Below are positions 1-40,925 of a DNA stretch of 40,925 nt, piece by piece; positions within the stretch are counted from its first letter, which is position 1, and the number at the start of each line of letters is the position of its first letter. Source of the stretch: a virus (lineage: Duplodnaviria; Heunggongvirae; Uroviricota; Caudoviricetes). Location: IMG/VR virus record IMGVR_UViG_2585427787_000014; one strand, 5' to 3'. A program made the translations under genes and the position numbers. The notes beneath the pieces were generated by a model that saw only the letters and a list, made by a program, of their open reading frames with translations, did no database searches and had not been told where the DNA came from.

Positions 1-516
1 ATGAAATTTAAAAAATGTCTTCTGCCTGTGGCAATGTTAGCGTCATTCACTCTGGCAGGATGCCAGTCAAATGCTGACGATCATGCTGCCGATGTTTATC
101 AAACCGATCAACTGAATACCAAACAAGAAACTAAAACCGTTAATATTATTTCCATTCTTCCCGCAAAAGTTGCCGTAGACAACTCCCAAAATAAACGGAA
201 CGCACAAGCCTTCGGCGCGCTTATTGGCGCAGTCGCTGGCGGTGTTATCGGCCACAACGTCGGGTCTGGCAGCAATTCCGGAACGACGGCAGGTGCAGTT
301 GGCGGCGGAGCTGTAGGCGCGGCAGCGGGTTCTATGGTGAATGATAAAACCTTAGTGGAAGGTGTTTCTTTAACCTATAAGGAAGGCACCAAAGTGTATA
401 CCTCTACCCAGGTGGGTAAAGAGTGCCAGTTTACGACAGGTTTAGCCGTTGTTATTACCACGACGTATAACGAAACGCGTATTCAGCCAAATACCAAATG
501 TCCTGAAAAGAGCTAA
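1..516 (+). CDS. lipoprotein with Gly/Ala-rich glycine-zipper segment; probably a host gene flanking the prophage
   Basis: 171-aa ORF; signal peptide ending in lipobox LAGC; GxxxG-rich stretch (AVAGGVIGHNVG...AVGGGAVGAAAG). Confidence 0.6.
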   Translation: MKFKKCLLPVAMLASFTLAGCQSNADDHAADVYQTDQLNTKQETKTVNIISILPAKVAVDNSQNKRNAQAFGALIGAVAGGVIGHNVGSGSNSGTTAGAVGGGAVGAAAGSMVNDKTLVEGVSLTYKEGTKVYTSTQVGKECQFTTGLAVVITTTYNETRIQPNTKCPEKS

Positions 517-531
517 TAATCAGGAGGAGTC

Positions 532-1071
532 ATGAAGAAAGTTTTTCTTTGCGCCATCTTAGCCTCCTTAAGCTATCCGGCTATCGCCTCATCATTGCAG
601 GATCAACTCTCTGCTGTCGCAGAAGCGGAACAGCAAGGTAAAAATGAAGAGCAAAGGCAGCATGACGAATGGGTCGCGGAGCGCAACAGGGAAATCCAGC
701 AAGAGAAGCAACGTCGCGCAAATGCCCAGGCCGCCGCTAACAAAAGAGCGGCAACGGCAGCGGCAAATAAGAAAGCTCGTCAGGATAAACTGGACGCCGA
801 AGCCTCTGCGGACAAAAAACGCGATCAAAGTTATGAAGATGAGCTACGCAGCTTAGAGATTCAGAAACAAAAACTGGCGCTGGCGAAAGAAGAAGCCCGT
901 GTTAAGCGAGAAAACGAATTTATCGATCAGGAACTGAAGCACAAAGCTGCGCAAACCGATGTGGTGCAATCTGAAGCTGACGCCAACAGAAATATGACTG
1001 AAGGCGGTCGCGATCTGATGAAAAGCGTGGGCAAAGCAGAAGAGAACAAATCGGACAGCTGGTTTAATTAA
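532..1071 (+). CDS. secreted, highly charged (K/E/Q/A-rich) coiled-coil protein; probably host
   Basis: 179-aa ORF with N-terminal signal peptide; AGGAGG Shine-Dalgarno upstream of ATG; followed by a strong terminator. Confidence 0.55.
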   Translation: MKKVFLCAILASLSYPAIASSLQDQLSAVAEAEQQGKNEEQRQHDEWVAERNREIQQEKQRRANAQAAANKRAATAAANKKARQDKLDAEASADKKRDQSYEDELRSLEIQKQKLALAKEEARVKRENEFIDQELKHKAAQTDVVQSEADANRNMTEGGRDLMKSVGKAEENKSDSWFN

Positions 1072-1115
1072 TCGATGTTAGTAACTTCAATCCTATAATT
1101 CTTGAAGATAAAAAA

Positions 1116-1142
1116 CCCTCTGTAGTAACAGAGGGTTTTGTT
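1116..1142 (+). terminator. rho-independent terminator after gene 532-1071
   Basis: Stem CCCTCTGT / ACAGAGGG with loop AGTA, followed by TTTTGTT. Confidence 0.6.
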
Positions 1143-1288
1143 CATTCATAGTGCAGGGTCAAATCATTCCCACTCGATTATTTGCGATACACATAACCAA
1201 TTGAGTGATAACAACTTTCCCATAACTGATTTTCACCGTACCGTTTTATATACCGTCACCGGAAATCAGTACCATGAAAAATGCCATG

Positions 1289-1774
1289 TCACCTGGTCAG
1301 CGAATCGTACTGCTTTTCACAGACTCGTCCGGCTTCGGCGGCCCGATCAGCGTACTCTGCCAGTTGTCGGTTTCGCTCGAGAGATTTGCTGAGCACGTCG
1401 GCAAGCAAAACTCCGGTGTCTGCGGCTGACGCCCCAGAGCCGACAGTGGCGTTATACTGCCTGAGCTGCTCACGGATGGCAACGAGCTGTTGCTGCAACC
1501 TGCCAGCGCGAGCGGCAGCATCAAGAGCATCATTGCGCGCCTGGTCGATAGCACGCTGTGCTTCACGTTCATTTGTCGCTTTCTCCTGTTCGTCATGCAG
1601 ACGCGCTTTCTCATCTTCGGCTTTTCGATCTGCCTTTGCCTGTGCATACCCGGCGTCGTACTGACGGTTGCCGTGTATATTCCAGGCAACAACGCCACTG
1701 ACCACCAGCGCAGCAAGCATCACGACAATAAGCAACTGTTTCCAGTATGTTTTTAATAATACCGAGATCATAAA
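1289..1774 (-). CDS. Rz-like i-spanin (inner-membrane spanin)
   Basis: Start taken at the internal Met (MISVLLKTYWKQLLIVVMLAALVV...) of track ORF 1289-1903. N-terminal TM helix then a charged coiled-coil region; lies immediately downstream of the endolysin with a 7-nt overlap. Confidence 0.6.
   Translation of the reverse strand, partial: FMISVLLKTYWKQLLIVVMLAALVVSGVVAWNIHGNRQYDAGYAQAKADRKAEDEKARLHDEQEKATNEREAQRAIDQARNDALDAAARAGRLQQQLVAIREQLRQYNATVGSGASAADTGVLLADVLSKSLERNRQLAEYADRAAEAGRVCEKQYDSLTR
1297..1572 (-). CDS. Rz1-like o-spanin lipoprotein embedded in Rz in another frame
   Basis: Inside track ORF 1297-1716: signal peptide plus lipobox (MNVKHSVLSTRRAMMLLMLPLALAGC) followed by a Ser/Pro-rich short mature part. 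Start is either Met at 1572 or 1533. Confidence 0.4.
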   Translation of the reverse strand: MNVKHSVLSTRRAMMLLMLPLALAGCSNSSLPSVSSSGSITPLSALGRQPQTPEFCLPTCSANLSSETDNWQSTLIGPPKPDESVKSSTIR

Positions 1775-2394
1775 AGCACCTTGCTGGCAGTGATGTACCG
1801 CGCGCGCCGGTCGTCGATGCCGTTCTGACCGCCATTGATGATCTGCGTGACGCGCACCAGGTCGCCGGTGTACTTCATGCAGCCTTTGGTGGCGAAGAAC
1901 CATGCAGCGCTGCGGGCCGCGTATTCGTCCTGCGCCAGCAGCTCAGGCTGAGAAACCAGATCAACCTTCAGGCCGTTACCGCAGTCACGATAGTTATCCA
2001 GGAATGTTATCCCGATAAGGCCACGCGCCCGGTATTTCCATCCATCACCCGGAGCGTTGTTACCGTAGCGCTTGCTGTACACCAGGTTGGCGATTGCGCG
2101 CTGGCGCTCCAGTGGCAATGCCTTCTCATAGGTCTTCCTGCCAAGCGCGCTGGCCTGGTCAGGAGTAATGCGCCCGGCGCGGATAAAGCCAGCCAGACCG
2201 GCAATGCTGTAGTTGAAATTCTCAATCAGCCTGGTGAATCCGGTGCTTTCATGCCCTGCCTGGGCAATGAACATTGCCTGATGCTGTGGATCAATAATGC
2301 CGAACTCTTTCATCGCTGCGGTGATATGCGGATACCAGCGCACAGCCAGTTGCTCAGTTATACCGGCAGCGCGCCGGAACTGGTTAATGTCCAT
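1768..2394 (-). CDS. endolysin, glycoside hydrolase family 19 (chitinase-like lysozyme)
   Basis: 208-aa ORF; translation resembles GH19-type phage endolysins as I recall them (FIAQAGHESTGF..., GRGLIGITFLDNY...); sits between the holin-like genes and Rz. Confidence 0.75.
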   Translation of the reverse strand: MDINQFRRAAGITEQLAVRWYPHITAAMKEFGIIDPQHQAMFIAQAGHESTGFTRLIENFNYSIAGLAGFIRAGRITPDQASALGRKTYEKALPLERQRAIANLVYSKRYGNNAPGDGWKYRARGLIGITFLDNYRDCGNGLKVDLVSQPELLAQDEYAARSAAWFFATKGCMKYTGDLVRVTQIINGGQNGIDDRRARYITASKVLL

Positions 2395-2692
2395 GTTGAG
2401 ACCTCGATATTTTGAATATCTGCACGACGTTACCGCGCGTCTTCAGAACGGCGGCAAGCATGACAGCATTGATGATGACCTCCGATAAATCGGCGGACAT
2501 TGGTGTGTGATACCAGATTGCGTATGCAGCGCGGACAGGAATGCTGGCGGCGGCAACAATGAGAAAGTAAGCGATCCACCCTCCCCATCTGCGATGTTGA
2601 GACCCATTACGCCTGAATGTGCCGACGCGGATTGCTATACCTGAACAGATAACCGCATTGGCAATAAGCAAAAGCAACTCATGAGTTGTCAT
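2384..2692 (-). CDS. lysis-cassette membrane protein (second holin/antiholin-like component)
   Basis: 102-aa ORF with about three hydrophobic helices; overlaps the holin-like gene upstream and the endolysin downstream. Confidence 0.45.
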   Translation of the reverse strand: MTTHELLLLIANAVICSGIAIRVGTFRRNGSQHRRWGGWIAYFLIVAAASIPVRAAYAIWYHTPMSADLSEVIINAVMLAAVLKTRGNVVQIFKISRSQHGH

Positions 2693-3092
2693 CGTCTTTT
2701 CTCCCCGGGATTAACTCGCGTGGATTATCGGAACGGTGATAGAGCCAGATGCCAATACGGACTGCGACTATTGCTGACACGAAAGCGCCAGCGGAGTACG
2801 CAACCCCTTTCTCAAACATATCTGTGGTGATGCCAGGGAAAGAGGATGCAAAGCCGATGAGGAATGTTGCTGTGGGTTTGTAGAAGAGAAGGCCACAGAG
2901 GAAACTGAGCATCGACAAGAGAACCCGGCGCCGTATCGGATACTCAACTGCTGAGGTAACAAAAATTACCGCACCAGCCAGAGCACCTAGCGCCACCTCT
3001 GGCGGAACTCCTGCGATTACCGCAGCAAGCGACCCCATGCTAAGCCACTGATTTAAAGACTCACTGGTTAGCCCGGCTGACATAATGACCAC
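2679..3092 (-). CDS. holin-like membrane protein
   Basis: 137-aa ORF with multiple TM helices and a charged C-terminal tail (RSDNPRELIPGRKDDDNS); first gene of the lysis cassette. Confidence 0.5.
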   Translation of the reverse strand: MVIMSAGLTSESLNQWLSMGSLAAVIAGVPPEVALGALAGAVIFVTSAVEYPIRRRVLLSMLSFLCGLLFYKPTATFLIGFASSFPGITTDMFEKGVAYSAGAFVSAIVAVRIGIWLYHRSDNPRELIPGRKDDDNS

Positions 3093-3187
3093 CGTTTACT
3101 GTGCATGAAGAACCCCCTTAGTTGGTGAGTCCATCATACACAATAAACCATATATGGTTAAAATTAGTTAAGAATGCTCTTATCAAA

Positions 3188-3204
3188 GTTACCCATCAGG
3201 TAAT
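3188..3204. promoter_or_regulatory. 17-bp palindrome copy (GTTACC-CATCA-GGTAAT) upstream of the lysis cassette
   Basis: Read directly from the sequence; between the tailspike stop (3211) and the holin start (3092). Confidence 0.5.
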
Positions 3205-3210
3205 TTATAA

Positions 3211-4665
3211 TTATTGCAAATATCCTTTTTTGTTTTTTAGCATTCTCGTTAACGCCTCTGTCCATGAAGCCATGATACTGATTTGCCCCTCAACTGTAGG
3301 ATGGATGTTGTCACCATACCATCCTATGTTTGCTCCAAAGTTTCTGCGCATATCAGCAAATTCATAGCCATTTTGTATGCAGAACTTTTTCAGCGCATGA
3401 GTATATTTTGCATGCGCGGCATAGTTAGCAGTAGTTACACCGTGAATACCACTATGCTCCTTAGTAGTAAAAATTGGGAAAATGCCAAAAACAGGGATAG
3501 CACCTGCGGCAACTATTTTATTTGCTATAGTCTGAACGTTTGTTACATACTGAGCTACAGCGGTACCACCTTGCTGGTCGTTAGTTCCTATCATACAAAG
3601 TACAACATCATGAGGTGAGTAATCTGTTGTTGAGCCTTCACCGGAAGACCAATAGGATGAACTGGTACCACTTACAGCATAATTTGTAATTGATACCTTA
3701 CCTACGTTGTCTGAGTTCTGTATAAAAGATGGTAATAGTTTTGTTATATCGTTGCTGCACCATGCGCCATAGCTAATTGAGTCTCCTATTACCCCAATAT
3801 TCAACGGACGCTTAACTCTCACTTTATAGTTTGACGTTTTAAGACAATCCAAAAAAATAACACCTTTGGCATCGCCACTACCCAACAAAATGAATCCTGC
3901 GTTAGCTACGGCTCCATTGAATCTATAAACTGGAAAGCCGTTAATAATAAATGTCATTACTGAATCATTAACAACAAATCCAAGATTAACCTGCTGATTA
4001 CTAACCCATCCATACGCACCACCGTTAGGGAGGGTGTAGGACTCATTTATTGTTTGAGTTCCATAAAAATTAAATCCTTTAACCATTAAGGTTGCACTTG
4101 ACACTGTTACATATGCTAATATAACCTCGTTTGAGGTTTTTATAAATACACCACATGATTCAGACATTCCACTTGTAAACACATTGATCTCATAAAGAGA
4201 ACCATTCTCAAGTGATGTTGGGTATAGAACCTGTGGGTTCGCTGAGAAATCAGATGACCACGTCACAGTGCTTGATGTTACAATTCCTGTTCCTGAGATG
4301 CTAATGTCTCCTGTTGAAACATTATAGACTTTCTGATTCCAGCTCGTCAGATCCACAACAGAAGATAACTCATTTAGTGACATGTTAACTAAACCAGGAG
4401 CAACATTATACAACTCCTTCAAGTCAACGAATGTATTTGCAGGTTTAACTAAAGTTGTTCCACTTACAGGATTTTTAATTCTTAAATTTGTTAATAATAA
4501 CAAATCTTTTGTATTTGGATTTTCATCAATATTAAATGTTATACCATCATCAGCATGAATTTTCAATCCTGATAAATCAGGCCGACCGCCAGAAAAAAAA
4601 AACGGTACCAGCCCCGTCAAAGTATAATGTTTCTCCAATTTCTGAAAGATAACTACGGGCAGCAT
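3211..4665 (-). CDS. tailspike C-terminal part with SGNH/GDSL esterase domain (downstream frame of a split tailspike)
   Basis: 484-aa ORF. C-terminal SGNH hydrolase blocks: GDS (IGVIGDSISYG), GxND (CMIGTNDQQGG), DxxH (GDNIHPT). Overlaps upstream ORF 4577-5788 across a T10 run. AT-rich. Confidence 0.65.
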   Translation of the reverse strand: MLPVVIFQKLEKHYTLTGLVPFFFSGGRPDLSGLKIHADDGITFNIDENPNTKDLLLLTNLRIKNPVSGTTLVKPANTFVDLKELYNVAPGLVNMSLNELSSVVDLTSWNQKVYNVSTGDISISGTGIVTSSTVTWSSDFSANPQVLYPTSLENGSLYEINVFTSGMSESCGVFIKTSNEVILAYVTVSSATLMVKGFNFYGTQTINESYTLPNGGAYGWVSNQQVNLGFVVNDSVMTFIINGFPVYRFNGAVANAGFILLGSGDAKGVIFLDCLKTSNYKVRVKRPLNIGVIGDSISYGAWCSNDITKLLPSFIQNSDNVGKVSITNYAVSGTSSSYWSSGEGSTTDYSPHDVVLCMIGTNDQQGGTAVAQYVTNVQTIANKIVAAGAIPVFGIFPIFTTKEHSGIHGVTTANYAAHAKYTHALKKFCIQNGYEFADMRRNFGANIGWYGDNIHPTVEGQISIMASWTEALTRMLKNKKGYLQ

Positions 4666-5788
4666 TATATTGAGTGAAAGAATCTGTTACCCCATCATAC
4701 TTAATACCCCACTGCCTCGCCCTTGTCGGATATAAGGACTCTACATACATGCCACCTGCAATAGAAAATATATGCCCTCCATCATCAGTAGCGGATCCAC
4801 TGCGGATTACTCCAATATTTCCACCTCCATCATTCTTTGAGTAATAACCAGACCATTCAACCATCATTCCATTGTACGATGAGTCAAAAACAACATGGTG
4901 GGCATTAGATAACACGCCAGACCTTAGATCTGCTACTGTAGAGAAAGTCAGTTTTACAACATTATTGTCGAGGTAATTCTCAAGCGTTCCGAAGTACTTA
5001 TCGCCAATAAATGACGCCCCGTTACTGGACGCAAGATCAGACCTTAAGCTGGCATCGCCAACACTAAGCCACTTACCACTTCCTATCCCCCCTGTGCTCT
5101 CAGGTGTAGAGTCGGTGGGGACTACTTTTGGTAGTGTTCCATCCCACCTGAACCATTCGCCTGAGCTTTCCTGGAGAAGAACGTCGTTAGGATAGTTGAT
5201 GGTATTACCCAGCTCAAAAGACCTCTTCGTGTTATAGCCATACAGTCCATTCTTCAATGTATCAATGATAGTTGCCAATAGGTTACTCAAATCACGATAA
5301 AGATCATCAATATATTTTTTTGTAGCTGCATCTTGTGGCATAGACGGATCACGGAGGTTTCTTATATAGAATCCCAGCGCATCATAGAAACTGGCAATGC
5401 TGCTTGGTCTTTTTAGTGCCAATCTGTTATCACTAAAAGCCTGCTGAATTAGCATCGTCAGTTTATCAAAAGCATCTTCATGTACTTCTGCGAAGAACTT
5501 ACCCTGATTTCTGAGATCTGTTTCCTGGGTAACTGGCAACTCTCTGGATATCGAAATCTGATAACCATTAGCAAGAGGAGCAGACAAAACAACATTTCCT
5601 CCAGTGTATCCACCAGCGCCAGTTACCGTATAACCGGTATCCAGAACCAATTCTGTTACGTTCCCGTTCAGGTCAGACACCTGAACAACCAGGTCGGATT
5701 TTTTGAAAATACGGAAGGTATACGGAAATGATGTCGTAACGCCGTTACCTGTGTATTCGTTGTGGTCAACTTCGGTTGAGACCGTCAT
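4577..5788 (-). CDS. tailspike N-terminal (virion-attachment) part (upstream frame)
   Basis: 403-aa ORF ending five codons after the T10 run. N-terminus (MTVSTEVDHNEYTGNGVTTSFPYTFRIFKK...) matches my recollection of conserved tailspike head-binding domains of epsilon15/phiV10-like podoviruses. Confidence 0.65.
   Translation of the reverse strand: MTVSTEVDHNEYTGNGVTTSFPYTFRIFKKSDLVVQVSDLNGNVTELVLDTGYTVTGAGGYTGGNVVLSAPLANGYQISISRELPVTQETDLRNQGKFFAEVHEDAFDKLTMLIQQAFSDNRLALKRPSSIASFYDALGFYIRNLRDPSMPQDAATKKYIDDLYRDLSNLLATIIDTLKNGLYGYNTKRSFELGNTINYPNDVLLQESSGEWFRWDGTLPKVVPTDSTPESTGGIGSGKWLSVGDASLRSDLASSNGASFIGDKYFGTLENYLDNNVVKLTFSTVADLRSGVLSNAHHVVFDSSYNGMMVEWSGYYSKNDGGGNIGVIRSGSATDDGGHIFSIAGGMYVESLYPTRARQWGIKYDGVTDSFTQYNAARSYLSEIGETLYFDGAGTVFFFWRSA
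4593..4602. repeat. A10/T10 homopolymer at the junction of the two tailspike reading frames
   Basis: Ten consecutive A on the plus strand; both tailspike ORFs read through it (VFFF in the upstream frame, PFFF in the downstream frame). Confidence 0.9.
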
Positions 5789-5842
5789 GTTAAATCTCCA
5801 GATAGTCGCAGCACCCGTTGCGCCGCATATCTGGTTATTCTA

Positions 5843-5864
5843 TTACCCAAAAAACCACATATGG
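5843..5864. promoter_or_regulatory. conserved element TATTACC(C)AAwwwAACCACATATGr (copy B), upstream of tailspike
   Basis: Near-identical to 24884-24907; a partial match at 32062-32080. Confidence 0.4.
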
Positions 5865-5891
5865 ATAGAAAGACTGTAAATACGAATAGAT

Positions 5892-5908
5892 ATTACCTTT
5901 CGGGTAAT
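5892..5908. promoter_or_regulatory. 17-bp palindrome copy (ATTACC-TTTCG-GGTAAT)
   Basis: Perfect inverted repeat; in the divergent region between the tailspike start (5788) and gene 5985-6242. Confidence 0.55.
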
Positions 5909-5944
5909 TTGCAAAACGTGCTGGATAGCAAACAAATTATTTGA

Positions 5945-5964
5945 TACTGTATAAATATACAGTT
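5945..5964. promoter_or_regulatory. LexA (SOS) box
   Basis: TACTGTATAAATATACAGTT fits CTGT-N8-ACAG with an AT-rich spacer; ends 6 bp before the first ATG (5970) and 21 bp before the SD-preceded ATG (5985). Confidence 0.7.
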
Positions 5965-5984
5965 ATTGCATGGAGAAGATTAAG

Positions 5985-6242
5985 ATGCAGCAGTATCACT
6001 ATCCACTGGAAGACGGATTTACCGAAAGGATTCACACGCCGGGAGGCGTCAGGTCACTGGTGGAAGGATCGCACTTGATGAAATTACTCCGGGATCTCGA
6101 TAAGGATGGATTTAATGTCGATGGCCCACTTGCCGAACTGACTGCACTGATTAACTACGTCACCAGCTCACAGATGTCTATGCGGGATCTGCAAACACAT
6201 CTCGACTATTGTGCCGAACAATTACGAAAACAAACCAGATAA
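5985..6242 (+). CDS. small antirepressor-like protein; standalone homologue of the C-terminal domain of the Bro-N protein at 6558-7268
   Basis: GGAG Shine-Dalgarno 9 nt before ATG 5985 (alternative ATG at 5970). About 45% identity by eye over ~80 aa to the C-terminus of the 6558-7268 product (LMKLLRDLDKDGFNVDGPLAELT...RDLQTHLDY vs LMNLLNQLQDDGHDVSGAAAELT...RDIQTHAEY). Confidence 0.6.
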   Translation: MQQYHYPLEDGFTERIHTPGGVRSLVEGSHLMKLLRDLDKDGFNVDGPLAELTALINYVTSSQMSMRDLQTHLDYCAEQLRKQTR

Positions 6243-6272
6243 GGTTTGCAATTACCAAGTGGAGTGCTTATA

Positions 6273-6289
6273 TTTACCTTTGCGGTAAA
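6273..6289. promoter_or_regulatory. 17-bp palindrome copy (TTTACC-TTTGC-GGTAAA)
   Basis: Embedded in a longer imperfect inverted repeat (GGAGTGCT...AGCACTCC) just downstream of gene 5985-6242. Confidence 0.5.
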
Positions 6290-6379
6290 TTTACATAGCA
6301 CTCCTCTTGTGCCATAGTAATCGGGCACTGGCAAAATCCAGTGCCGGGATTGGCGTCCCGAGTTACTAAGTGGCGCATA

Positions 6380-6401
6380 CCACGCCAGACGTGGTTTTTT
6401 T
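6380..6401 (+). terminator. rho-independent terminator
   Basis: Stem CCACG / CGTGG with loop CCAGA, followed by T7. Confidence 0.55.
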
Positions 6402-6557
6402 ATGCGTTAAGCACAGCTATATCCGAATTATGGTGGGCTGGGCAGGGGTCCGAAAGGACGCCGGTACCACTTAGGCCGGTACGCCAACCTTGTCCAGTTC
6501 ACCACCAGTAATTGGCGTTGCGGTGGTGATTAAAATCACTAAGTGGAGATAACCACC

Positions 6558-7268
6558 ATGGCTAATGCTCAAACTGCCATCTTCAAATTTGAATCTGTTA
6601 ACCCTATCCGTTCCATCATTATCGATGGCCAACCATGGTTTGTAGCCCAAGACGTTTGTAGTGCGCTGCGTATCCAAAACGTCACCCAAGCACTTGAAAA
6701 ACTGGATGATGATGAAAGGTCTATGTTCAACATAGGGCATGAACATCGTGCAATTTTTGACAGCCGAGTAAAAGAGATCAACATCATCTCCGAGTCAGGC
6801 CTCTACACACTGATCCTCCGCTGCCGCGACGCAGTGACACCAGGCACTATCCCATACCGCTTTCGTAAATGGGTTACAGGTGAGGTTCTTCCTCAGATCC
6901 GCCGCACCGGAAGTTACATTAAAAACTCGCTCCCGCAGGAAGAGCGCATAAAGATGGTTGCCGACCAGGTAGCCAACGCCACAGCATCAGCAGTGATGCA
7001 GGCGATGAAGATAGAGAACAAAACCTACAGTGCCCCACTGAAGCCCGGCTACCGCAGCCTGATTCATTCGCCGTCTGGTGTTCTCGGCCTGACGGAGAAC
7101 TCACTGCTGATGAATCTGCTGAACCAGTTACAGGACGACGGGCACGACGTATCGGGCGCGGCGGCGGAGCTGACCACCATGTTCTGCTACATCGTCGGTG
7201 TGAGCAAATGCCTGCGTGATATCCAGACGCACGCGGAGTACATCAACGACAAGGCAGGGTTCTTCTGA
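6558..7268 (+). CDS. Bro-N domain antirepressor-like protein
   Basis: GGAG 9 nt before ATG 6558 (track ORF begins at GTG 6543). N-terminus (AIFKFESVNPIRSIIIDGQPWFVAQDVCSALRI...) has Bro-N/antirepressor character; C-terminal ~80 aa paralogous to the 5985-6242 product. Confidence 0.6.
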   Translation: MANAQTAIFKFESVNPIRSIIIDGQPWFVAQDVCSALRIQNVTQALEKLDDDERSMFNIGHEHRAIFDSRVKEINIISESGLYTLILRCRDAVTPGTIPYRFRKWVTGEVLPQIRRTGSYIKNSLPQEERIKMVADQVANATASAVMQAMKIENKTYSAPLKPGYRSLIHSPSGVLGLTENSLLMNLLNQLQDDGHDVSGAAAELTTMFCYIVGVSKCLRDIQTHAEYINDKAGFF

Positions 7269-7339
7269 CGGGCGGCGGCACAGGGATGTGCCTTTAAATA
7301 ATTCTGTACAGATTGCAGACTGTGGGTGAATAGCGTACT

Positions 7340-7356
7340 ATTACCTCAAGGGTAAA
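7340..7356. promoter_or_regulatory. 17-bp palindrome copy (ATTACC-TCAAG-GGTAAA)
   Basis: About 60 bp upstream of small ORF 7416-7595. Confidence 0.5.
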
Positions 7357-7415
7357 CGGATTGGTTTCATTTTTATTAATCCGTGTAATGAACTTATGAG
7401 ATATGAGGTAATGTC

Positions 7416-7595
7416 ATGCGAAACGAAAAATTGCAGATGCGTAGAGCGCAAGCTGCCGCAAGACGTTCTTTCAATGGAAGCGTAGAGTGCGTAAAAGTTA
7501 CTATGACAAAAGATCACGCAAGTCGCGTATCCCGCGCTTTCTTTGATTCTCGTAACAATAAGGAAAATTATGAGTTCGTCTGCGTCGCAGAATGA
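7416..7595 (+). CDS. small basic protein (59 aa) overlapping the start of the YafO-like gene; candidate antitoxin/regulator
   Basis: Not in the ORF track (<60 aa). ATG preceded by GAGGT; translation MRNEKLQMRRAQAAARRSFNGSVECVKVTMTKDHASRVSRAFFDSRNNKENYEFVCVAE; overlaps the next gene by 26 nt in another frame. Confidence 0.3.
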   Translation: MRNEKLQMRRAQAAARRSFNGSVECVKVTMTKDHASRVSRAFFDSRNNKENYEFVCVAE

Positions 7596-8115
7596 TAAAA
7601 ATCAAATTGTCAGATATAAGGGTCGAGTATTGCATACGCAAAATTTCTCGGCCCTTTGTGCATCTGATCTTGAGCTGAAGAAAGTATCTGATGCCTTTAC
7701 CCAGTATTGGAAAACGGGATACCATCCATCTCTTGGTAAAGATGCTGCATTTGCTCGTCCGACAGAAATGCTTAAACTAAATGTCAGGCATACTCATGTC
7801 GATAACCAAGACTATATTCCAGAAGATAGTGATAAAAAACACACTGGTAAAAAATCATCTTGGGATGCATGGAAAAAAATAGCGTCTGTGCAAGTAAAAT
7901 GCATACCAACAAGTAATTGCTTTTTAGTTTATTCGGTAAATCACAATCGTGATGCGCTGGTTATGTTTTTTGTTGACGCAGATGCCCACAACATAACTGA
8001 GCAAGAAGAGTTTAAAGAGGCAGCAATCACTATCAGTTATCAATTCTTTGAGAAAACAAAAACAGAACCAATGCCTTTAGAAGAAGATCTTTTTTCTGAT
8101 AAATGGAAGGAATAA
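7570..8115 (+). CDS. YafO-family toxin-like protein (type II TA-like candidate)
   Basis: AAGGA before ATG 7570 (track start 7543). Translation resembles E. coli YafO as I recall it (SLGKDAAF...NVRHTHV...CFLVYSV). AT-rich; has its own terminator. Confidence 0.45.
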   Translation: MSSSASQNDKNQIVRYKGRVLHTQNFSALCASDLELKKVSDAFTQYWKTGYHPSLGKDAAFARPTEMLKLNVRHTHVDNQDYIPEDSDKKHTGKKSSWDAWKKIASVQVKCIPTSNCFLVYSVNHNRDALVMFFVDADAHNITEQEEFKEAAITISYQFFEKTKTEPMPLEEDLFSDKWKE

Positions 8116-8136
8116 GCCCGCGCCGCGGGCTTTTTT
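8116..8136 (+). terminator. rho-independent terminator after the YafO-like gene
   Basis: GC-rich stem GCCCGCG / CGCGGGC followed by T6. Confidence 0.65.
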
Positions 8137-8208
8137 GTGGACGAAACAAAAGTCAGTGCTACACTCATTGACGCCACATTGAGGTGGATTATAGATGGAA
8201 ATTTCACA

Positions 8209-8370
8209 ATGAAAAAAGCATTTGCTGCACTGTTCGTTTTGTTGTCTCTGGTAGCTTCAACTCAGGCCTTTGCCGGTCGTTGTCAGCACGACAGCGATAC
8301 TGCCGCTGACGGCTCCCGCTGCGGTGGGCGTTCTGCGGATTCCCGCCCGGGTGGCGGTGGCATTCGTTAA
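8209..8370 (+). CDS. small secreted peptide (signal peptide plus ~30-aa Gly/Arg/Asp-rich tail)
   Basis: Internal start of track ORF 8137-8370: MKKAFAALFVLLSLVASTQAFA then GRCQHDSDTAADGSRCGGRSADSRPGGGGIR. Confidence 0.3.
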   Translation: MKKAFAALFVLLSLVASTQAFAGRCQHDSDTAADGSRCGGRSADSRPGGGGIR

Positions 8371-8375
8371 AAACA

Positions 8376-8393
8376 AGGCCGCGAAAGCGGCCT
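8376..8393 (-). terminator. hairpin terminator between convergent genes
   Basis: Stem AGGCCGC / GCGGCCT with loop GAAA; T-rich tract follows on the minus strand, downstream of gene 8402-8698. Confidence 0.5.
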
Positions 8394-8401
8394 GTGACAT
8401 G

Positions 8402-8698
8402 TCACGTTCCTTTTCTGAATGATAGCCGTTCGAAAAATGATGACATTCCACCGCAGACAATAGCAAAGATGATCCCACCAAAGAAGAGAAGGCCAGCCTG
8501 CCACCACTCCCACCGCCATACATCCACAGCGCCAATCATACCAACAATCGCTCCAACAAACGGAATATAACTCACGACAAAAGCAACGGGAGCTGCAATT
8601 ACCCAGTGCAACCCCCACCATGATTCAAGCCCAGCCATAATTGCTGCCAACTGAAAAAGACCAACGACGATATAAACAATGAATCCTATAGCTTGCAT
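8402..8698 (-). CDS. small integral membrane protein (last gene of the internal-virion operon)
   Basis: 98-aa ORF with hydrophobic helices separated by a Trp-rich loop (VDVWRWEWWQ). Confidence 0.5.
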   Translation of the reverse strand: MQAIGFIVYIVVGLFQLAAIMAGLESWWGLHWVIAAPVAFVVSYIPFVGAIVGMIGAVDVWRWEWWQAGLLFFGGIIFAIVCGGMSSFFERLSFRKGT

Positions 8699-8710
8699 GT
8701 AGTCACCTAT

Positions 8711-8884
8711 TTACCCATTAAAAATCAGAGGCCTCCCCTCAATAAGGCTTGCAACAAGAACTACTCCCTGCACAACAAAGATGAACCAGCAAATAGCTTG
8801 AGTCTGAGGGTTAAGAAAATATTTGTAGCGGTCAATAAATAACAATCCACCAGAAATTATCACACTCAAAATAATTAAAAACAC
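8711..8884 (-). CDS. small hydrophobic protein (57 aa), GTG start
   Basis: Not in the track. AGGAAG Shine-Dalgarno then GTG; translation VFLIILSVIISGGLLFIDRYKYFLNPQTQAICWFIFVVQGVVLVASLIEGRPLIFNG; fills the gap between the 824-aa gene and 8402-8698. Confidence 0.25.
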   Translation of the reverse strand: MFLIILSVIISGGLLFIDRYKYFLNPQTQAICWFIFVVQGVVLVASLIEGRPLIFNG

Positions 8885-8893
8885 AACACTTCC

Positions 8894-11368
8894 TTATTGC
8901 GGAGTGACATCCTGAGGTCGCCACCAGTATGTCTGGTTAAACTCTTTCTTCGAACGTTGCTCCATTTTACGCAAATAGCCTGGTGAAAAATACTCCTGCA
9001 TCTGGTTAAAGATCATGTGATCGAGAGCCGCCTTCAAGTACCAGAGATTCGCACCAGGCATCAAACCTTTCCCCAGCTTCACCAGATCACCACCAGTCTG
9101 CTCACTCTTCCCTTCCACAGCATTTAACGGTATGCCCTGAGCAATCTTCACTACGTCATCAACCAGACCAGCTACCGGACCAAGCATCGACGCCAGCGCG
9201 CCGCTTCCGTACCTAGTGTGATCTGACAATAAAAAGTCACCATAAAGGCCAAGACCACCACCTTTCAGTAGAGCACCAAGCCAGAATTTTGCGGCATCTT
9301 CTCCTGTCATCTCTCGAGGATTACGACCAGACGCAAGGTCGTTAAGTTGTTGCGACAAAGCGCCAAGAATGGTCGTACTGGCAATAAACGTCGCAATATA
9401 TGCCGCACGCCCACCAGCAGACGGCATACCCATAGCGCGTGACCAGTGACGCATAACAACCGAGATAGGGAACGATTTAAACAGGAAAACACTTCTCGTT
9501 AATTCACCTTTCCATGTTCCACGCTGAATACCAGAACCGGTTATCAGTTGCTCACGTGCTCCCGGTGTAATAACAGCCATATCAACTTCTTCAGTTACGG
9601 CACCGAGCAGTTTACGCATTGCCTCAAATTTCACGCGTTCAGGCTCACCAAGATGTTTAACTGCTGAATCAGGGATACGCATAATGCTTTCCGGTGTCAG
9701 CATCGTATTATTACCGTTCCCCCAGTCCTCCTGTTGCGCCAGCTTCCATACGCTCCAGTCTGTGTCAGTAATCCCTTTGCTTTTCAGGATACGAAAATCA
9801 GAGTCATCGAGGCTACGAAGGTCTGGTGTTCGTGACACTACTTCTCCCAGGCTTCCCATCATGGTTACGCCATAGGCGCGCTTGTGCGCATCTGACCATG
9901 CTGTAAGCCCACTGGCACGCATTACCGCCGTTGCCGCCCAACGAGACACTGACGGCCCCATATTATCCATCGCCCAGCGGTTAACGCTGCCAAGTAGAGA
10001 TTCCATCGCCAGACCAGCGCGGCGCGCCCGCGCAAGTTCTGTACGGTTCGTTGGGTCCATAGCTTCAAGCTGGTTGCGGAATAACTGGTTCATTGGAAGG
10101 TTGGTAACCTTCGCAGACAGATACATGGTTCCAAGATCAGAGAACGATGACAGCAACGCGGATCCGAGTCTGCTGGCAACCAGCCAGTTGCGGATATTGT
10201 CAGACCATCGCGCGATGTGCGGATTCGCTACAGGCTGTGTCTTTCCGGAAATAAAGTTGTACAGATTCTCTGTGTTGTTCGCCAGCCGCTCGACTTTACC
10301 GGTTTTACTCGGGTTAGCTGTTGCCGTTTCTGCCTTAACCTGATCAAGAAGGGAGCGGAAAACATGATCGGGGTTTGGACCATATGTTTCCACCAGTGCA
10401 ATATCTTTACTGATACCTTCCAGGTGACCGACCATGATTTCCCATAGAGAGCGATCGCCATAAAGTTGCTGATATTGCAGATAGGAATCTGCATCTTTGA
10501 AATGTATCTGTCGTGATGCATTACCACGGTTAGCACGTGCGCCGGAAATTCGCATTCCGGTATCAGTAAGCTTATTCAGCCCACCAGTAGCGATCGTGTT
10601 ATAAGCCTCTCCAAGAAATGCAGACAACTCGGCATCGTTCATCAGTTGTCCATCGGCTCGGATATAATATTTGCGATCCAGCTTACCTATAACATCGCTA
10701 ACCCACTTATCCTTTGATACCGCCCCAACCTTTTCCATAGAATGATGTTGAGGGATCCCCCAGTTTTCGAGATAGCCAATGTCCCCACCAGCATCATTAA
10801 ACCTGCGGCGCAGTAGCTCTGTCACTTCTCTCCACGCCTTAGCACCTTTTCTTGCTTTAGCATTGCCAGTATTTTGCCCCCGCATTTCATATACCAGGTC
10901 ACGTACGCCCGCTTCATCTTCAAACAGACCAAAAAAGCGAGGATCAACTGCTTCGAATGCCTCCTGCAATTGACTCAATGCATAATCACGGGTGGCTTTT
11001 GTTCTGGATTCAACAGAGAGGAAATTCGATTTACCGTCTGCATTAAAAGCAATAGTACGGTTAAGAGCGCCAAGTTTCCCATCAGCCCCTTGATAGCTAT
11101 TGATAAATTTATCCAATCTCTGACGTGCGGCTATAGTGAGGGCCACACGACGTTTCTTTAATGCCGCTTCTCGCTGTAATTCTTCAGATGCCAATTGTGC
11201 TGCACGATATAGCCGCTCTGATTCGGAAAGTTGTCTCCACGACATCGGGTCATCACGAGCAATGGAGCGCATATTTCGATAAATGCGGTCTTCAATGTTC
11301 TGTATTTCTCGCGCCGTTAACGTGCGCTGCGCCGCCTGCTGGACCGCTTGTATACATTCCTGTCTCAT
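8894..11368 (-). CDS. large internal virion/ejection protein (T7 gp16 position)
   Basis: 824-aa ORF, last large gene of the block before the tailspike side; function assigned by position and size only. Confidence 0.6.
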   Translation of the reverse strand: MRQECIQAVQQAAQRTLTAREIQNIEDRIYRNMRSIARDDPMSWRQLSESERLYRAAQLASEELQREAALKKRRVALTIAARQRLDKFINSYQGADGKLGALNRTIAFNADGKSNFLSVESRTKATRDYALSQLQEAFEAVDPRFFGLFEDEAGVRDLVYEMRGQNTGNAKARKGAKAWREVTELLRRRFNDAGGDIGYLENWGIPQHHSMEKVGAVSKDKWVSDVIGKLDRKYYIRADGQLMNDAELSAFLGEAYNTIATGGLNKLTDTGMRISGARANRGNASRQIHFKDADSYLQYQQLYGDRSLWEIMVGHLEGISKDIALVETYGPNPDHVFRSLLDQVKAETATANPSKTGKVERLANNTENLYNFISGKTQPVANPHIARWSDNIRNWLVASRLGSALLSSFSDLGTMYLSAKVTNLPMNQLFRNQLEAMDPTNRTELARARRAGLAMESLLGSVNRWAMDNMGPSVSRWAATAVMRASGLTAWSDAHKRAYGVTMMGSLGEVVSRTPDLRSLDDSDFRILKSKGITDTDWSVWKLAQQEDWGNGNNTMLTPESIMRIPDSAVKHLGEPERVKFEAMRKLLGAVTEEVDMAVITPGAREQLITGSGIQRGTWKGELTRSVFLFKSFPISVVMRHWSRAMGMPSAGGRAAYIATFIASTTILGALSQQLNDLASGRNPREMTGEDAAKFWLGALLKGGGLGLYGDFLLSDHTRYGSGALASMLGPVAGLVDDVVKIAQGIPLNAVEGKSEQTGGDLVKLGKGLMPGANLWYLKAALDHMIFNQMQEYFSPGYLRKMEQRSKKEFNQTYWWRPQDVTPQ

Positions 11369-37709: not shown

Positions 37710-37958
37710 ATGAAAGGTGCATTAGGTAAGAAGGAACTCCTGGCGGTGGTGCCACTGTCATGGAGCACTATCGACCGTATGGAGCGCGCAGGGGAATTTC
37801 CTAAACGCTGGTATATCACTGACAAACGCTGCGCATGGAACCGTGACGAAGTTGAGCGTTGGCTTGATGAACGTCAGGCAGCAAGCCCGGCAGAGTTCCA
37901 GGGTAAAAAGCCTCCTGTTCAGCAACGTGTATATCGTCCTGTGAGCAACGCTGCATGA
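37710..37958 (+). CDS. AlpA-like small DNA-binding protein (possible excisionase/regulator)
   Basis: 82-aa ORF with AGAGGT Shine-Dalgarno; motif STIDRMERAGEFPKRWYITDKRCAWNRDEVERWL resembles AlpA/Xis-type HTH. Confidence 0.55.
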   Translation: MKGALGKKELLAVVPLSWSTIDRMERAGEFPKRWYITDKRCAWNRDEVERWLDERQAASPAEFQGKKPPVQQRVYRPVSNAA

Positions 37959-38067: not shown

Positions 38068-38367
38068 GTGAGAAAGTTAAGCCGACTTGAAAAATATCAC
38101 ATGAACAAGGTTTCAATGCGCAGCCCTTCAAAGGTTGTTGCCGTTACTCCTGCGGCGATAGAGATCGAAAAACGCGCGATTGAAAGAGAGAAAAAAGGGC
38201 AGTTCCGCATTGCCGCCCACCTTTGGCTTCAGTGTATGGATGTTGCTTCTGGTGATGTTGAGCGTGCAAGGATCGCGGTTCGCAGGGACCAATGTATCAC
38301 AAAAGGTAACGGCCTTCGCCGTGGCGACTATAGCGGCATAGGATGTTGTGGGGTGGTTTATGACTAA
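38068..38367 (+). CDS. hypothetical small regulatory-type protein
   Basis: 99-aa ORF, GTG start with GAGGG upstream (alternative ATG at 38101). Confidence 0.4.
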   Translation: MRKLSRLEKYHMNKVSMRSPSKVVAVTPAAIEIEKRAIEREKKGQFRIAAHLWLQCMDVASGDVERARIAVRRDQCITKGNGLRRGDYSGIGCCGVVYD

Positions 38368-39668: not shown

Positions 39669-40925
39669 TTATTTATTACTGTCTTCCATCCACTTCTCAA
39701 ACTTCGACGGGGAGAACGGAATCAGATCCGTATGCTCCCCGTCAATCCAAGAATCAATCATATCGGCCCACTGCTGCAACATGTAGGCGCGCTGTCTGGC
39801 GTATTCCGCTTTGTTATATACGGCGCGCACACCTTTCTGCTCATGTGCCAGAGCCTTTTCAATCCAGTCTGAAGGATAACCAGCCTCATGCAACAACGTA
39901 CTGGCTGTACGGCGCATATCGTGTACGGTAAAATCCTGAATATGCTCACCATCTTCATTTATTATTTTCACCGTTCTGTCGATCAGAGAGTTCAGCGCGG
40001 CATTAGATAATGGCTTCCGGAAATTGTAACGACCAGGAACCAGATATTCACTTCCACCAGCGCACATCTGCAACCCGACCAATATATCCTGTGCCTGTTT
40101 AGGCAGGTAAATAACGTGCGCCCGGCTTCCCTTCATGCGGTCTGGAGGAATTGTCCATGTCCATTTTTTAAAATCTATTTCATCCCACGTTGCATTGGTG
40201 AATTCGCCTTTACGAACCATAGTGATAAGCACCAACTTTAAAGCCATTTTCATAGTACCCATAGCACCAATGGCATCCAGCGTGCGGAAGAACAGGCCAA
40301 TTTCTTCTGGTGTCAGTGTTCGCTCTCGTGGTTTAAATATGGCGATAGACGAAGGTTTAATGTCAGCCGCAGGATTAAACAAACCATGACCACGGTCATT
40401 GGCGTGACGGTATACGCTGCTGATGATCTCCCTGGCCTGTACTGCTGTTGCACGGCCACCGCGTTCGACAATCCGGTCACACAAATCACGAACCATCGAT
40501 GTGGTAATTTCAGTCATCATTTTGTTGCCAAGAACCGGAAGTATGTCACGGTCGATCACCGCCTGCTTCATTGCGCGGGTACTGTCAGCCAGGATGACGT
40601 GTTTCATATAACTGTCGGTATGTACCGCAAACGTCTCGGCACCACGAATCTTTTTGATACCGTCACGTTTAGCCGCAGCCGGTGACTGGCCTGCTTTAAG
40701 CAGCTTCTTTGCAGCAATCAGTTCTTCTCGCGCTTCTGCCAGGCTGATACCGTCACGCCCATACTGCCCGATTACCAGCGTTTCGCGGCGACCGTTGATA
40801 CGGTAGTCGTAGCGAAACGAGACCGTGCCTGACGTAAGAACAGCTACATACAGCCCGTCACGATCGGAGACCTTGTACAGTTTGTCCTGCGGCTTGAGGT
40901 TTTTTAATTTTGTATCGGTAAGCAC
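39669..40925 (-). CDS. int: tyrosine integrase, P4-like (N-terminal arm-binding domain); 5' end at or just beyond the window edge
   Basis: 418-aa ORF reaching the window end; N-terminus (LTDTKLKNLKPQDKLYKVSDRDGLYVAV) typical of P4-type integrases; C-terminal catalytic R...HxxR...Y pattern (HDMRRTA...Y). Confidence 0.8.
   Translation of the reverse strand: MLTDTKLKNLKPQDKLYKVSDRDGLYVAVLTSGTVSFRYDYRINGRRETLVIGQYGRDGISLAEAREELIAAKKLLKAGQSPAAAKRDGIKKIRGAETFAVHTDSYMKHVILADSTRAMKQAVIDRDILPVLGNKMMTEITTSMVRDLCDRIVERGGRATAVQAREIISSVYRHANDRGHGLFNPAADIKPSSIAIFKPRERTLTPEEIGLFFRTLDAIGAMGTMKMALKLVLITMVRKGEFTNATWDEIDFKKWTWTIPPDRMKGSRAHVIYLPKQAQDILVGLQMCAGGSEYLVPGRYNFRKPLSNAALNSLIDRTVKIINEDGEHIQDFTVHDMRRTASTLLHEAGYPSDWIEKALAHEQKGVRAVYNKAEYARQRAYMLQQWADMIDSWIDGEHTDLIPFSPSKFEKWMEDSNK

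What the first reader, a model, noticed from the sequence alone, without database searches (positions are those of the whole stretch)
1143..1288. Left prophage junction falls in a 146-bp gap; integration is not at the internal tRNA
The host terminator ends at 1142 and the Rz stop is at 1289, so attL must lie in between. The only tRNA in the window is 24 kb away, so the P4-type integrase here does not use it as the target. The short ACCGT-containing repeats in this gap may include the core.
Basis: inference. Interest (0 to 1): 0.35.

Follow-up and report, generated by a model that had tools for sequence, protein, structure and literature searches.

The report
Prophage left junction at guaA end
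The 146-base gap holds the left junction (attL) of an epsilon15/phiV10-type prophage inserted at the last codons of the host gene guaA, a well-documented insertion site, so the finding is correct but ordinary.

Summary
Window 1-1178 matches the prophage-free E. coli K-12 yfgH-yfgI-guaA region at 99.83% identity, and the match stops at 1178.

The junction is a 17-bp attL core, AATCATTCCCACTCGAT, at 1162-1178. It is 16/17 identical to the published attP/attB core of phiV10, epsilon15 and vB_EcoP_ZX5 (attgagtgggaatgatt, reverse complement). It overlaps the last three codons and the stop codon of guaA. Related lysogens carry intact guaA about 190 bp beyond the window end, next to the integrase.

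The integrase has an arm-binding domain and is 98-99% identical to those of phiV10 and ZX5. The tRNA-Arg(TCT) at 25285 is phage cargo, not the target.

They lie in phage-only DNA and are the most conserved part of the P' arm in 80 distinct relatives. They contain ATACCGTCAC, the motif the epsilon15 GenBank record marks as an integrase-binding (arm-type) site.

Integration of this integrase cluster at guaA is already published. Side observations:
- The phage carries a near copy of the host guaA terminator.
- The P'-arm layout recurs in alpha- and betaproteobacterial elements.
- This attL has two rare A-to-G changes, at 1176 and 1184.

The parts
1..516 (+). Host gene yfgH (glycine-zipper outer-membrane lipoprotein).
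   Evidence: 99.8% identical to K-12. RefSeq annotation seen. Pfam glycine-zipper domain.
532..1071 (+). Host gene yfgI (DUF5384).
   Evidence: Present in 5422 of 5426 complete E. coli genomes.
1112..1139 (.). Host stem-loop terminator between the convergent genes yfgI and guaA. In the lysogen it lies downstream of yfgI (+) and of the phage Rz/Rz1 lysis genes (-).
   Evidence: Terminator-like site on the minus strand. Identical in K-12.
1143..1161 (.). Host spacer between the terminator and the core; part of the B arm of attL.
   Evidence: Identical to K-12 L002 4936-4954.
1162..1178 (.). attL core AATCATTCCCACTCGAT. Bases 1164-1175 are the reverse complement of the last guaA codons GAG TGG GAA TGA. 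G1176 replaces the usual A.
   Evidence: Shared by attL, attR and attB. Unique in the window, 0.03 expected by chance. Equals the published core attgagtgggaatgatt with one mismatch. An IMG/VR provirus of the same prophage starts at 1162.
1179..1288 (.). Phage P' arm of attL.
   Evidence: Colinear with the sequence between the core and the Rz stop in free phage genomes phiV10, epsilon15, SPN1S, Tyrion, BUCT554 and BUCT711, and in the circular pNADC1036guaAphage.
1188..1210 (-). Conserved CATAACCAATTGA..TGATAAC box; an IHF-like bending site (inferred).
   Evidence: AATTGA at 1199-1204 is at least 95% conserved in 80 unique arms. It corresponds to an IHF site annotated in the epsilon15 record at L004 517-539. 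Similar boxes, two of them an exact ATAACNNATTGA at the same offset, occur in alpha-proteobacterial elements.
1238..1259 (+). Two direct arm-type integrase-binding repeats 12 bp apart: GTACCGTTTT (1238-1247) and ATACCGTCAC (1250-1259).
   Evidence: TACCGTTTTATATACCGTCACCG at 1239-1261 is the most conserved block of the P' arm in 80 unique relatives and is invariant in 8 phages from 4 host genera. ATACCGTCAC is annotated as an integrase-binding site in the epsilon15 record. Nine copies with at most 1 mismatch against 1.7 expected; the four exact copies all lie near the prophage ends.
1270..1288 (+). Second repeat pair, TACCATG (1270) and TGCCATG (1282), also 12 bp apart. They resemble the ATACCATG repeats next to GIsul2-type integrases. 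Function unknown.
   Evidence: Only moderately conserved among relatives.
1289..1771 (-). Rz-like i-spanin (DUF2514), the last phage gene before attL. An embedded Rz1 frame ends at 1297.
   Evidence: Pfam PF10721, E=3e-46. Annotation of the relatives.
25285..25361 (+). Phage-borne tRNA-Arg(TCT); cargo, not an attachment site.
   Evidence: ARAGORN. The same tRNA lies between the portal and terminase genes in the excised circular phage record.
37710..37958 (+). AlpA-family small HTH protein; candidate excisionase (recombination directionality factor).
   Evidence: Pfam Phage_AlpA, E=3e-5, above the curated cut-off. An AlpA gene also follows the GIsul2 integrase. The role is inferred.
39669..40925 (-). 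Tyrosine integrase of the epsilon15 cluster, with Arm-DNA-bind_3, central and catalytic domains. It reads towards attR and guaA, which lie just beyond 40925.
   Evidence: Pfam. 98.3% identical to the phiV10 integrase, 99.0% to ZX5, about 87% to epsilon15-like phages. guaA follows 192 bp after the integrase start in related lysogens.
40657..40756 (+). Two further exact ATACCGTCAC copies inside the 5' part of int (40657-40666 and 40747-40756), plus an inverted copy at 40404-40413. Possible extended P-arm or autoregulatory sites.
   Evidence: The two direct copies correspond to integrase-binding sites annotated in the epsilon15 record at L004 32-41 and 122-131. Both encode R-D-G-I in the same frame, so coding constraint may contribute.

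Best explanation
The gap 1143-1288 contains attL of an epsilon15/phiV10-type (Uetakevirus) prophage integrated at the 3' end of the host GMP-synthase gene guaA.

Shown:
- Host DNA runs to the core at 1162-1178.
- The core is 16/17 identical to the published attP/attB core of this phage group.
- In an empty site the core overlaps the last three codons and the stop codon of guaA.
- Everything from 1179 rightwards is the phage P' arm.
- In related lysogens the second copy of the core, joined to intact guaA, lies about 190 bp beyond the integrase start at 40925.

Inferred mechanism, by analogy with lambda-type, arm-dependent tyrosine integrases:
- The N-terminal arm-binding domain of Int binds the ATACCGTCAC-type repeats. 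These are 1238-1259 in the P' arm, with more copies in the P arm and in the 5' end of int.
- IHF bends the DNA at the conserved CATAACCAATTGA box.
- The core-binding and catalytic domains exchange strands within the identity block, probably at TCCCACTC (1168-1175), the central motif shared with the GIsul2 att sites.
- Integration leaves the GuaA protein unchanged, because the stop codon lies inside the core.
- The phage P arm brings its own terminator for guaA. The original host terminator (1112-1139) now ends yfgI and the phage lysis transcript.
- Excision would recombine attL with attR, probably helped by the AlpA-like protein encoded at 37710-37958.
For: - Host/phage boundary: 1-1178 = K-12 at 99.83%, ending at 1178; three-way attL/attB/attR alignment.
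- Core uniqueness.
- Published core and experimental proof of integration at the guaA 3' end for ZX5, with phiV10 and epsilon15 cited: (PMC9782041). Also (TL-2011b inserted in guaA; PMC8138268: the epsilon15 cluster of IntSXT-type integrases targets the 3' flank of guaA).
- Integrase identity to phiV10 (98.3%) and ZX5 (99.0%). Domain structure.
- attP read directly from a circular record named pNADC1036guaAphage.
- attR with intact guaA in lysogens carrying a 99-100% identical integrase.
- Arm sites: epsilon15 annotation; enrichment; conservation.
- Phage-borne terminator.
- An IMG/VR provirus that is 99.97% identical starts exactly at 1162.
Against: - attR of this very genome lies outside the window and was not seen; it is inferred from relatives.
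- This attL core differs from the consensus at 1176 (G for A), and the adjacent, otherwise 98%-or-more invariant TATTTAC reads TATTTGC (G at 1184). Whether this attL is still fully functional is not known.
- Binding of Int and IHF to the named sites, the position of strand exchange and the role of AlpA are inferences. The epsilon15 site annotations are themselves predictions, as far as I could verify.
Confidence: 0.95

Rival explanations
1. The crossover core lies within the ACCGT-containing repeats at 1235-1259.
For: The repeats are real and strikingly conserved.
Against: K-12 attB has no such sequence next to guaA; host homology ends at 1178, about 60 bp to the left. The repeats sit at the same place in unintegrated phage genomes. 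The same motif recurs on the other arm and inside int, which is the pattern of arm-type sites rather than of a core.
Confidence: 0.01
2. yfgH and yfgI (1-1071) are phage cargo, and the true left junction lies to the left of the window.
For: None found.
Against: The genes are present in 5422 of 5426 complete E. coli genomes. In K-12 they lie directly beside guaA with no prophage. They are absent from free phage genomes and from the circular phage record.
Confidence: 0.01
3. The junction is a decaying attL. The two rare A-to-G changes (1176 in the core, 1184 in the invariant TATTTAC) impair core-type binding or strand exchange, so the prophage is partly locked in the chromosome.
For: Among 116 Uetakevirus-like arms from IMG/VR (80 unique), only the copy of this same prophage (L113) has G at 1176. 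Position 1184 is at least 98% A in the 80 unique arms.
Against: Elements in Alpha- and Betaproteobacteria normally have G at the position equivalent to 1176. GIsul2 recombination needs only the central GAGTGGGA, which is intact at 1168-1175. The integrase, the arm sites and the rest of the prophage look intact. If this phage's attP carried the G's before integration, they are simply lineage variants.
Confidence: 0.1
4. The internal tRNA-Arg(TCT) at 25285 marks a junction between two elements, so the window holds two adjacent elements rather than one prophage.
For: P4-like integrases commonly target tRNA genes.
Against: The tRNA lies between the portal and terminase genes in the same position in the 38.7-kb circular phage record. 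No core repeat lies near it. The window is colinear with complete Uetakevirus genomes.
Confidence: 0.01

Closest known systems
attP/attB of the Uetakevirus phages phiV10, epsilon15 and vB_EcoP_ZX5 (17-bp core attgagtgggaatgatt at the guaA 3' end)
   Same: The core is the same (16/17). The gene order Rz - attP - int is the same. The integrase is 98-99% identical to phiV10 and ZX5 and about 87% to epsilon15-like phages. The ATACCGTCAC repeats, the P-arm terminator and the host target are the same.
   Different: There is a G at 1176 in the core and a G at 1184 just beyond it. The tail-spike and O-antigen-modification region differs; DNA identity to known phages over 1176-9000 covers only 50-60% of the region.
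GIsul2 genomic island integrase and att sites (guaA 3' end, central GAGTGGGA)
   Same: It uses the same target gene end and the same central motif (TCCCACTC, window 1168-1175). Its integrase is 54% identical over 95% of the length. It has a terminator in the integrase-proximal arm and an AlpA gene nearby.
   Different: It is a mobilizable resistance island, not a phage. Its arm repeats are ATACCATG-like rather than ATACCGTC.
guaA-targeting integrases of ICEs and genomic islands in Alpha- and Betaproteobacteria (Mesorhizobium IntG, Cupriavidus CMGI-3; the 'epsilon15 cluster' of the IntSXT subgroup)
   Same: The target is the same. In 29 genome loci the core plus TATTT is followed by the same P'-arm layout in many Alpha- and Betaproteobacteria: an ATAAC..ATTGA-like box at +9, and TACCGTC repeats at about +55 (plus about +67 in seven loci). 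A Rhizobiaceae element has an arm-binding domain 52% identical.
   Different: The cargo differs (ICEs or islands against a podovirus). The core has G where enterobacterial guaA has A. I did not identify which of the loci found here are the named elements.
Lambda-type attP architecture (core flanked by arm-type Int sites and IHF sites)
   Same: An integrase with an N-terminal arm-binding domain. Repeated arm motifs lie on both arms in direct and inverted orientation. An IHF-like box sits between the core and the arm sites.
   Different: The arm-binding domain belongs to a different family (Arm-DNA-bind_3/DUF4102, P4/SXT type). The target is a protein-coding gene end. No binding data were found for this system.

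Membership tests
Uetakevirus (epsilon15/phiV10-type) prophage attL at guaA | The 17-bp core attgagtgggaatgatt is shared by attP and attB. | tested here: met
   AATCATTCCCACTCGAT at 1162-1178 matches 16/17. It is unique in the window, with 0.03 matches expected by chance. Published core.
Uetakevirus (epsilon15/phiV10-type) prophage attL at guaA | In an unoccupied genome the core overlaps the 3' end of guaA. | tested here: met
   In K-12, yfgI is followed by 92 bp and then the guaA stop. The core covers GAG TGG GAA TGA.
Uetakevirus (epsilon15/phiV10-type) prophage attL at guaA | The integrase is orthologous to those of phiV10, epsilon15 and ZX5. | tested here: met
   98.3% identical to phiV10, 99.0% to ZX5, about 87% to epsilon15-like phages, over the full length.
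Uetakevirus (epsilon15/phiV10-type) prophage attL at guaA | A second core copy (attR) is joined to intact guaA at the other prophage end. | not testable with these tools
   attR lies beyond 40925. It was seen only in related lysogens: L001 with a 99% identical integrase region and L159 with a 100% identical integrase protein.
Uetakevirus (epsilon15/phiV10-type) prophage attL at guaA | The P' arm is colinear with free phage attP (core - P' arm - Rz stop). | tested here: met
   Alignment with 7 phage genomes or the circular form, and 80 unique arms from IMG/VR.
P4/SXT-type (arm-binding-domain) tyrosine integrases | Arm-DNA-bind_3 (DUF4102) N-terminal domain plus a central SAM-like domain plus a Phage_integrase catalytic domain. 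| tested here: met
   Pfam: PF13356 E=4e-20, PF22022 E=1e-11, PF00589 E=1e-19.
P4/SXT-type (arm-binding-domain) tyrosine integrases | Catalytic residues (R, K, HxxR, H, Y) are intact. | tested here: inconclusive
   The catalytic domain matches the profile end to end (positions 3-170 of 172). The HDMRR and AHE...VY motifs are visible in the translation. No residue-by-residue alignment to a solved integrase was made.
tRNA-targeting prophage integration | The att core overlaps the 3' part of a tRNA gene at the prophage boundary. | tested here: not met
   The only tRNA (25285-25361) is internal and is also present in the excised phage. The core lies in guaA.
Arm-type integrase-binding sites (for the ACCGT repeats) | A short motif is repeated on both arms, outside the core, and is conserved among relatives while the flanks vary. 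| tested here: met
   Exact ATACCGTCAC copies are found only near the prophage ends. Copies are present in the P arm of relatives in direct and inverted orientation. The block is invariant or at least 95% conserved.
Arm-type integrase-binding sites (for the ACCGT repeats) | The sites are bound by the integrase N-terminal domain. | not testable with these tools
   Only the annotation in the epsilon15 GenBank record is available. No binding experiment was found in the searchable literature.

The most novel reading that the evidence does not exclude
The evidence does not exclude that this attL is a functional variant. Two bases that are otherwise almost invariant, at the right edge of the core (A-to-G at 1176 and 1184), may alter core-type binding and bias the prophage towards lock-in.

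A second reading is also open. The P' arm carries two different 12-bp-spaced repeat pairs: TACCGT(C) at 1239/1251 and TACCATG/TGCCATG at 1270/1282, the latter resembling GIsul2-type arm repeats. That could let two sub-lineages of guaA integrases act on the same attL.
Probability: 0.08. Interest if true: 0.3.

Novelty: already known. Interest (0 to 1): 0.1.

Why it matters
The result fixes the prophage boundary to the base: the phage starts at 1162-1179 and ends about 190 bp beyond the window. It names the insertion target as guaA. It reassigns the conspicuous ACCGT repeats from "possible core" to arm-type integrase sites.

None of this changes current understanding. guaA is a documented hotspot used by epsilon15-like phages, GIsul2 and several ICEs. 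About 10% of complete E. coli genomes carry this type of P' arm at the site (550 of 5426).

The practical use is in annotation: prophage delimitation, and recognising that a P4-like integrase need not target a tRNA.

Tried and rejected
- Looking for the shared direct repeat inside the window: impossible, because attR lies beyond 40925. I used related lysogens and a circular phage record instead.
- The search for homologous proteins with the integrase returned only hits at 98% identity or more from Escherichia (nearly all named ones E. coli) in its top 120. It was useless for distant relatives.
- The scan of one genome per species with the core plus TATTT gave 29 loci, mostly attL sides whose integrase is out of reach. 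Only one of them, L031, showed part of a related integrase. Two IMG/VR loci, L060 and L100, showed one at about 53% identity.
- A literature search for the motif ATACCGTCAC returned only unrelated primer sequences.
- The epsilon15 genome paper (Kropinski 2007, PMC2698709) is not held. What it says is cited only through PMC9782041, PMC8138268 and the GenBank annotation.
- The simple terminator scan scored the host stem-loop only on the minus strand. Its bidirectional action is therefore an inference.
- I considered that the hits in Alpha- and Betaproteobacteria could be chance extensions of the conserved guaA end. I rejected this for the loci that also share the ATAAC..ATTGA-like box and TACCGTC at about +55 and +67. 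It may still hold for a few loci without these features, such as the Bacteroidia and Chlorobiota loci.

Full report
**1. What is at 1143-1288**

The window opens with two plus-strand ORFs, 1-516 and 532-1071, followed by a G+C-rich stem-loop at 1112-1139. A minus-strand ORF ends with its stop codon at 1289-1291. With the ATG at 1771, which overlaps the stop of the upstream GH19 endolysin gene, it is a 160-aa DUF2514 Rz-like spanin (Pfam E=3e-46). ARAGORN finds one tRNA in the window, tRNA-Arg(TCT) at 25285-25361.

**2. Host or phage to the left**

Window 1-1400 hits 5422 of 5426 complete E. coli genomes. The features under the match are yfgH, yfgI and, in lysogens, a DUF2514 gene. In K-12 MG1655 the order is yfgH, yfgI, 92 bp, then the stop codon of the convergent gene guaA, with no prophage.

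Window 1-1178 aligns to that K-12 stretch at 99.83% identity (2 mismatches, no gaps), and the alignment ends at 1178. So 1-1161 is host DNA.

**3. The core**

I aligned the window (attL), K-12 (attB) and the integrase-guaA junction of a related lysogen (attR, strain 20AR0300, integrase region 99.1% identical). All three share AATCATTCCCACTC(A/G)AT.
- To the left of this block, attL matches attB.
- To the right, attR matches attB.

In the window the block is AATCATTCCCACTCGAT at 1162-1178. It is the only match at up to 2 mismatches, with 0.03 expected by chance.

Its reverse complement, attgagtgggaatgatt apart from the one mismatch, is the published attP/attB core of phiV10, epsilon15 and vB_EcoP_ZX5. 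[quoted passage not shown]

Bases 1164-1175 are the reverse complement of GAG TGG GAA TGA, the last three codons and stop codon of guaA. Because the stop codon lies inside the core, integration regenerates an unchanged guaA at attR.

Two independent checks agree:
- A RefSeq record of a related phage assembled as a 38.7-kb circle is named pNADC1036guaAphage. It is cut exactly after ...TCATTCCCACTCAAT.
- An IMG/VR provirus that is 99.97% identical to the window over 10.8 kb begins at window position 1162.

**4. The phage and its integrase**

The prophage belongs to the epsilon15/phiV10 group (genus Uetakevirus) by DNA similarity and gene order.

The integrase (39669-40925, minus strand) has Arm-DNA-bind_3, central and catalytic domains. 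It is 98.3% identical to the phiV10 integrase, 99.0% to ZX5 and about 87% to epsilon15-like Salmonella phages.

His conclusion that the integrase does not use the internal tRNA is also right: the same tRNA-Arg sits between the portal and terminase genes in the excised circular phage.

A survey of tyrosine recombinases already places epsilon15, CMGI-3 and related integrases in one cluster that targets the 3' flank of guaA (PMC8138268). GIsul2 and Mesorhizobium IntG elements use the same gene end (PMC9376610 and PMC8627217).

**5. The ACCGT repeats**

ACCGT occurs at 1235, 1240 and 1252. These copies lie 60-80 bp inside phage-only DNA and cannot be the core.
- In an alignment of eight phages from Escherichia, Salmonella, Enterobacter and Klebsiella, TACCGTTTTATATACCGTCAC is invariant while its flanks vary.
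- In 80 unique Uetakevirus-like P' arms from IMG/VR, the blocks that are at least 95% conserved are the core plus TATTTAC (1164-1185), AATTGA (1199-1204) and TACCGTTTTATATACCGTCACCG (1239-1261).
- The epsilon15 GenBank record annotates ATACCGTCAC four times as an integrase-binding site: once in each arm and twice inside the 5' end of int.
- The window has exact copies at the equivalent places (1250, 40657, 40747) and an inverted one at 40404. With up to 1 mismatch there are 9 copies, against 1.7 expected and none of 100 shuffles reaching 9.
- The P arm of related lysogens adds a direct ATACCGTCACC and an inverted TGACGGTAT.

This is the pattern of arm-type sites for the N-terminal domain of the integrase. 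Actual binding has not been shown, as far as I could find.

**6. Anatomy of the gap**

| Coordinates | Content |
|---|---|
| 1143-1161 | Host spacer |
| 1162-1178 | attL core |
| 1179-1288 | P' arm |
| 1188-1210 (within the P' arm) | IHF-like box CATAACCAATTGA; equivalent to an IHF site annotated in epsilon15 |
| 1238-1259 (within the P' arm) | Two arm repeats, 12 bp apart |
| 1270-1288 (within the P' arm) | Second pair, TACCATG/TGCCATG, also 12 bp apart |

**7. Likely mechanism (inferred)**

- Int is bridged between arm sites and core and is helped by IHF bending. It exchanges strands within the identity block.
- GIsul2, whose integrase is 54% identical, recombines at att sites that share the central GAGTGGGA. 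That motif is TCCCACTC at window 1168-1175.
- The G at 1176 differs from the A in E. coli attB and in the attR of relatives. This fits a crossover to the left of 1176, if the phage carried the G before integration.
- An AlpA-family gene at 37710-37958 is the candidate excisionase.

**8. Side observations**

(a) Terminator copy. The phage P arm carries a stem-loop, AAAAACCCTCTG(C/T)AAAAACAGAGGGTT, nearly identical to the host terminator AAAAACCCTCTGTAGTAACAGAGGGTT at 1112-1139. It lies on the same side of the core and is conserved in all eight phages. After integration the phage copy follows guaA and shields int from read-through. The host copy follows yfgI and the Rz genes.

(b) Layout in other classes. 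A scan of one genome per species for the core plus TATTT found 29 loci, mostly Alpha- and Betaproteobacteria. Many show the same P'-arm layout: an ATAAC..ATTGA-like box at +9, and TACCGTC at about +55 (plus about +67 in seven of them). A Rhizobiaceae contig has an attP-like arrangement with a truncated integrase whose arm-binding domain is 52% identical. This fits the published epsilon15 integrase cluster. The shared arm geometry may not have been spelled out before.

(c) Rare bases. G1176 and G1184 are rare. Among 116 Uetakevirus-like arms only the copy of this same prophage has G at 1176.

(d) Occupancy. About 10% of complete E. coli genomes (550 of 5426) have the host flank joined to this type of P' arm.

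**9. Verdict**

It lacked the name of the target, guaA. The system is a textbook-type, arm-dependent tyrosine-integrase junction that is already documented for this phage group. Interest is low.

Noticed in passing
window 1112-1139; L001 6049-6072; L003 38618-38650: The phage P arm carries a stem-loop terminator (AAAAACCCTCTGyAAAAACAGAGGGTT) nearly identical to the host guaA/yfgI terminator. It lies on the same side of the core and is conserved in Uetakeviruses of four host genera. It looks like an old capture of host flank that now supplies guaA with a terminator and insulates int.
   Followed up: partly
L010, L012, L013, L015, L017, L019, L024, L027-L029, L031, L033, L035, L037 (right of the core): Elements at the guaA end in Alpha- and Betaproteobacteria share the P'-arm layout of the window: TATTT, an ATAAC..ATTGA-like box at +9, and TACCGTC repeats at about +55 (plus about +67 in seven of these loci). 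This suggests the arm-site geometry is conserved across classes in the epsilon15 integrase cluster.
   Followed up: partly
window 1176 and 1184: Two A-to-G differences at positions that are at least 98% conserved in 80 unique related arms. They are shared only with IMG/VR provirus L113, which is the same prophage. The effect on excision is unknown.
   Followed up: partly
window 1270-1288: A second 12-bp-spaced repeat pair, TACCATG/TGCCATG, abuts the Rz stop codon. It resembles the ATACCATG repeats next to the GIsul2 integrase on pAB3 (L163 1330-1480) and the repeats in viral contigs L060 and L100, whose integrases are 53% identical to the window's.
   Followed up: no
window 40657-40666, 40747-40756, 40404-40413: Exact ATACCGTCAC copies lie inside the integrase gene. 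The two direct ones both encode R-D-G-I in the same frame and are annotated as integrase-binding sites in epsilon15. They could be autoregulatory sites or a coding coincidence.
   Followed up: partly
L003 (NZ_CP076267.1, 38,709 bp): A RefSeq 'plasmid' named pNADC1036guaAphage is the excised circular form of a related prophage. The same strain also has the chromosomal copy (H31), which points to spontaneous excision or replication in culture.
   Followed up: no
L031 1-1050 (Rhizobiaceae MAG): An attP-like arrangement: int, a P arm with several ATACCGTCA copies, the core, then a P' arm. The integrase is truncated to 203 aa. It may be a decaying or tandem element.
   Followed up: partly
window 38348-39666: An MT-A70 methyltransferase and a calcineurin-like phosphatase lie immediately next to int, with a PerC-family regulator at 38068-38367. 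These are moron-like genes at the prophage end and were not examined.
   Followed up: no
window 1176-9000: Only 50-60% of the left 7.8 kb (lysis genes, tail spike and neighbours) is covered by any phage in the collection, at 86-90% identity. The tail-spike and O-antigen-related module seems to differ from those of described relatives.
   Followed up: no
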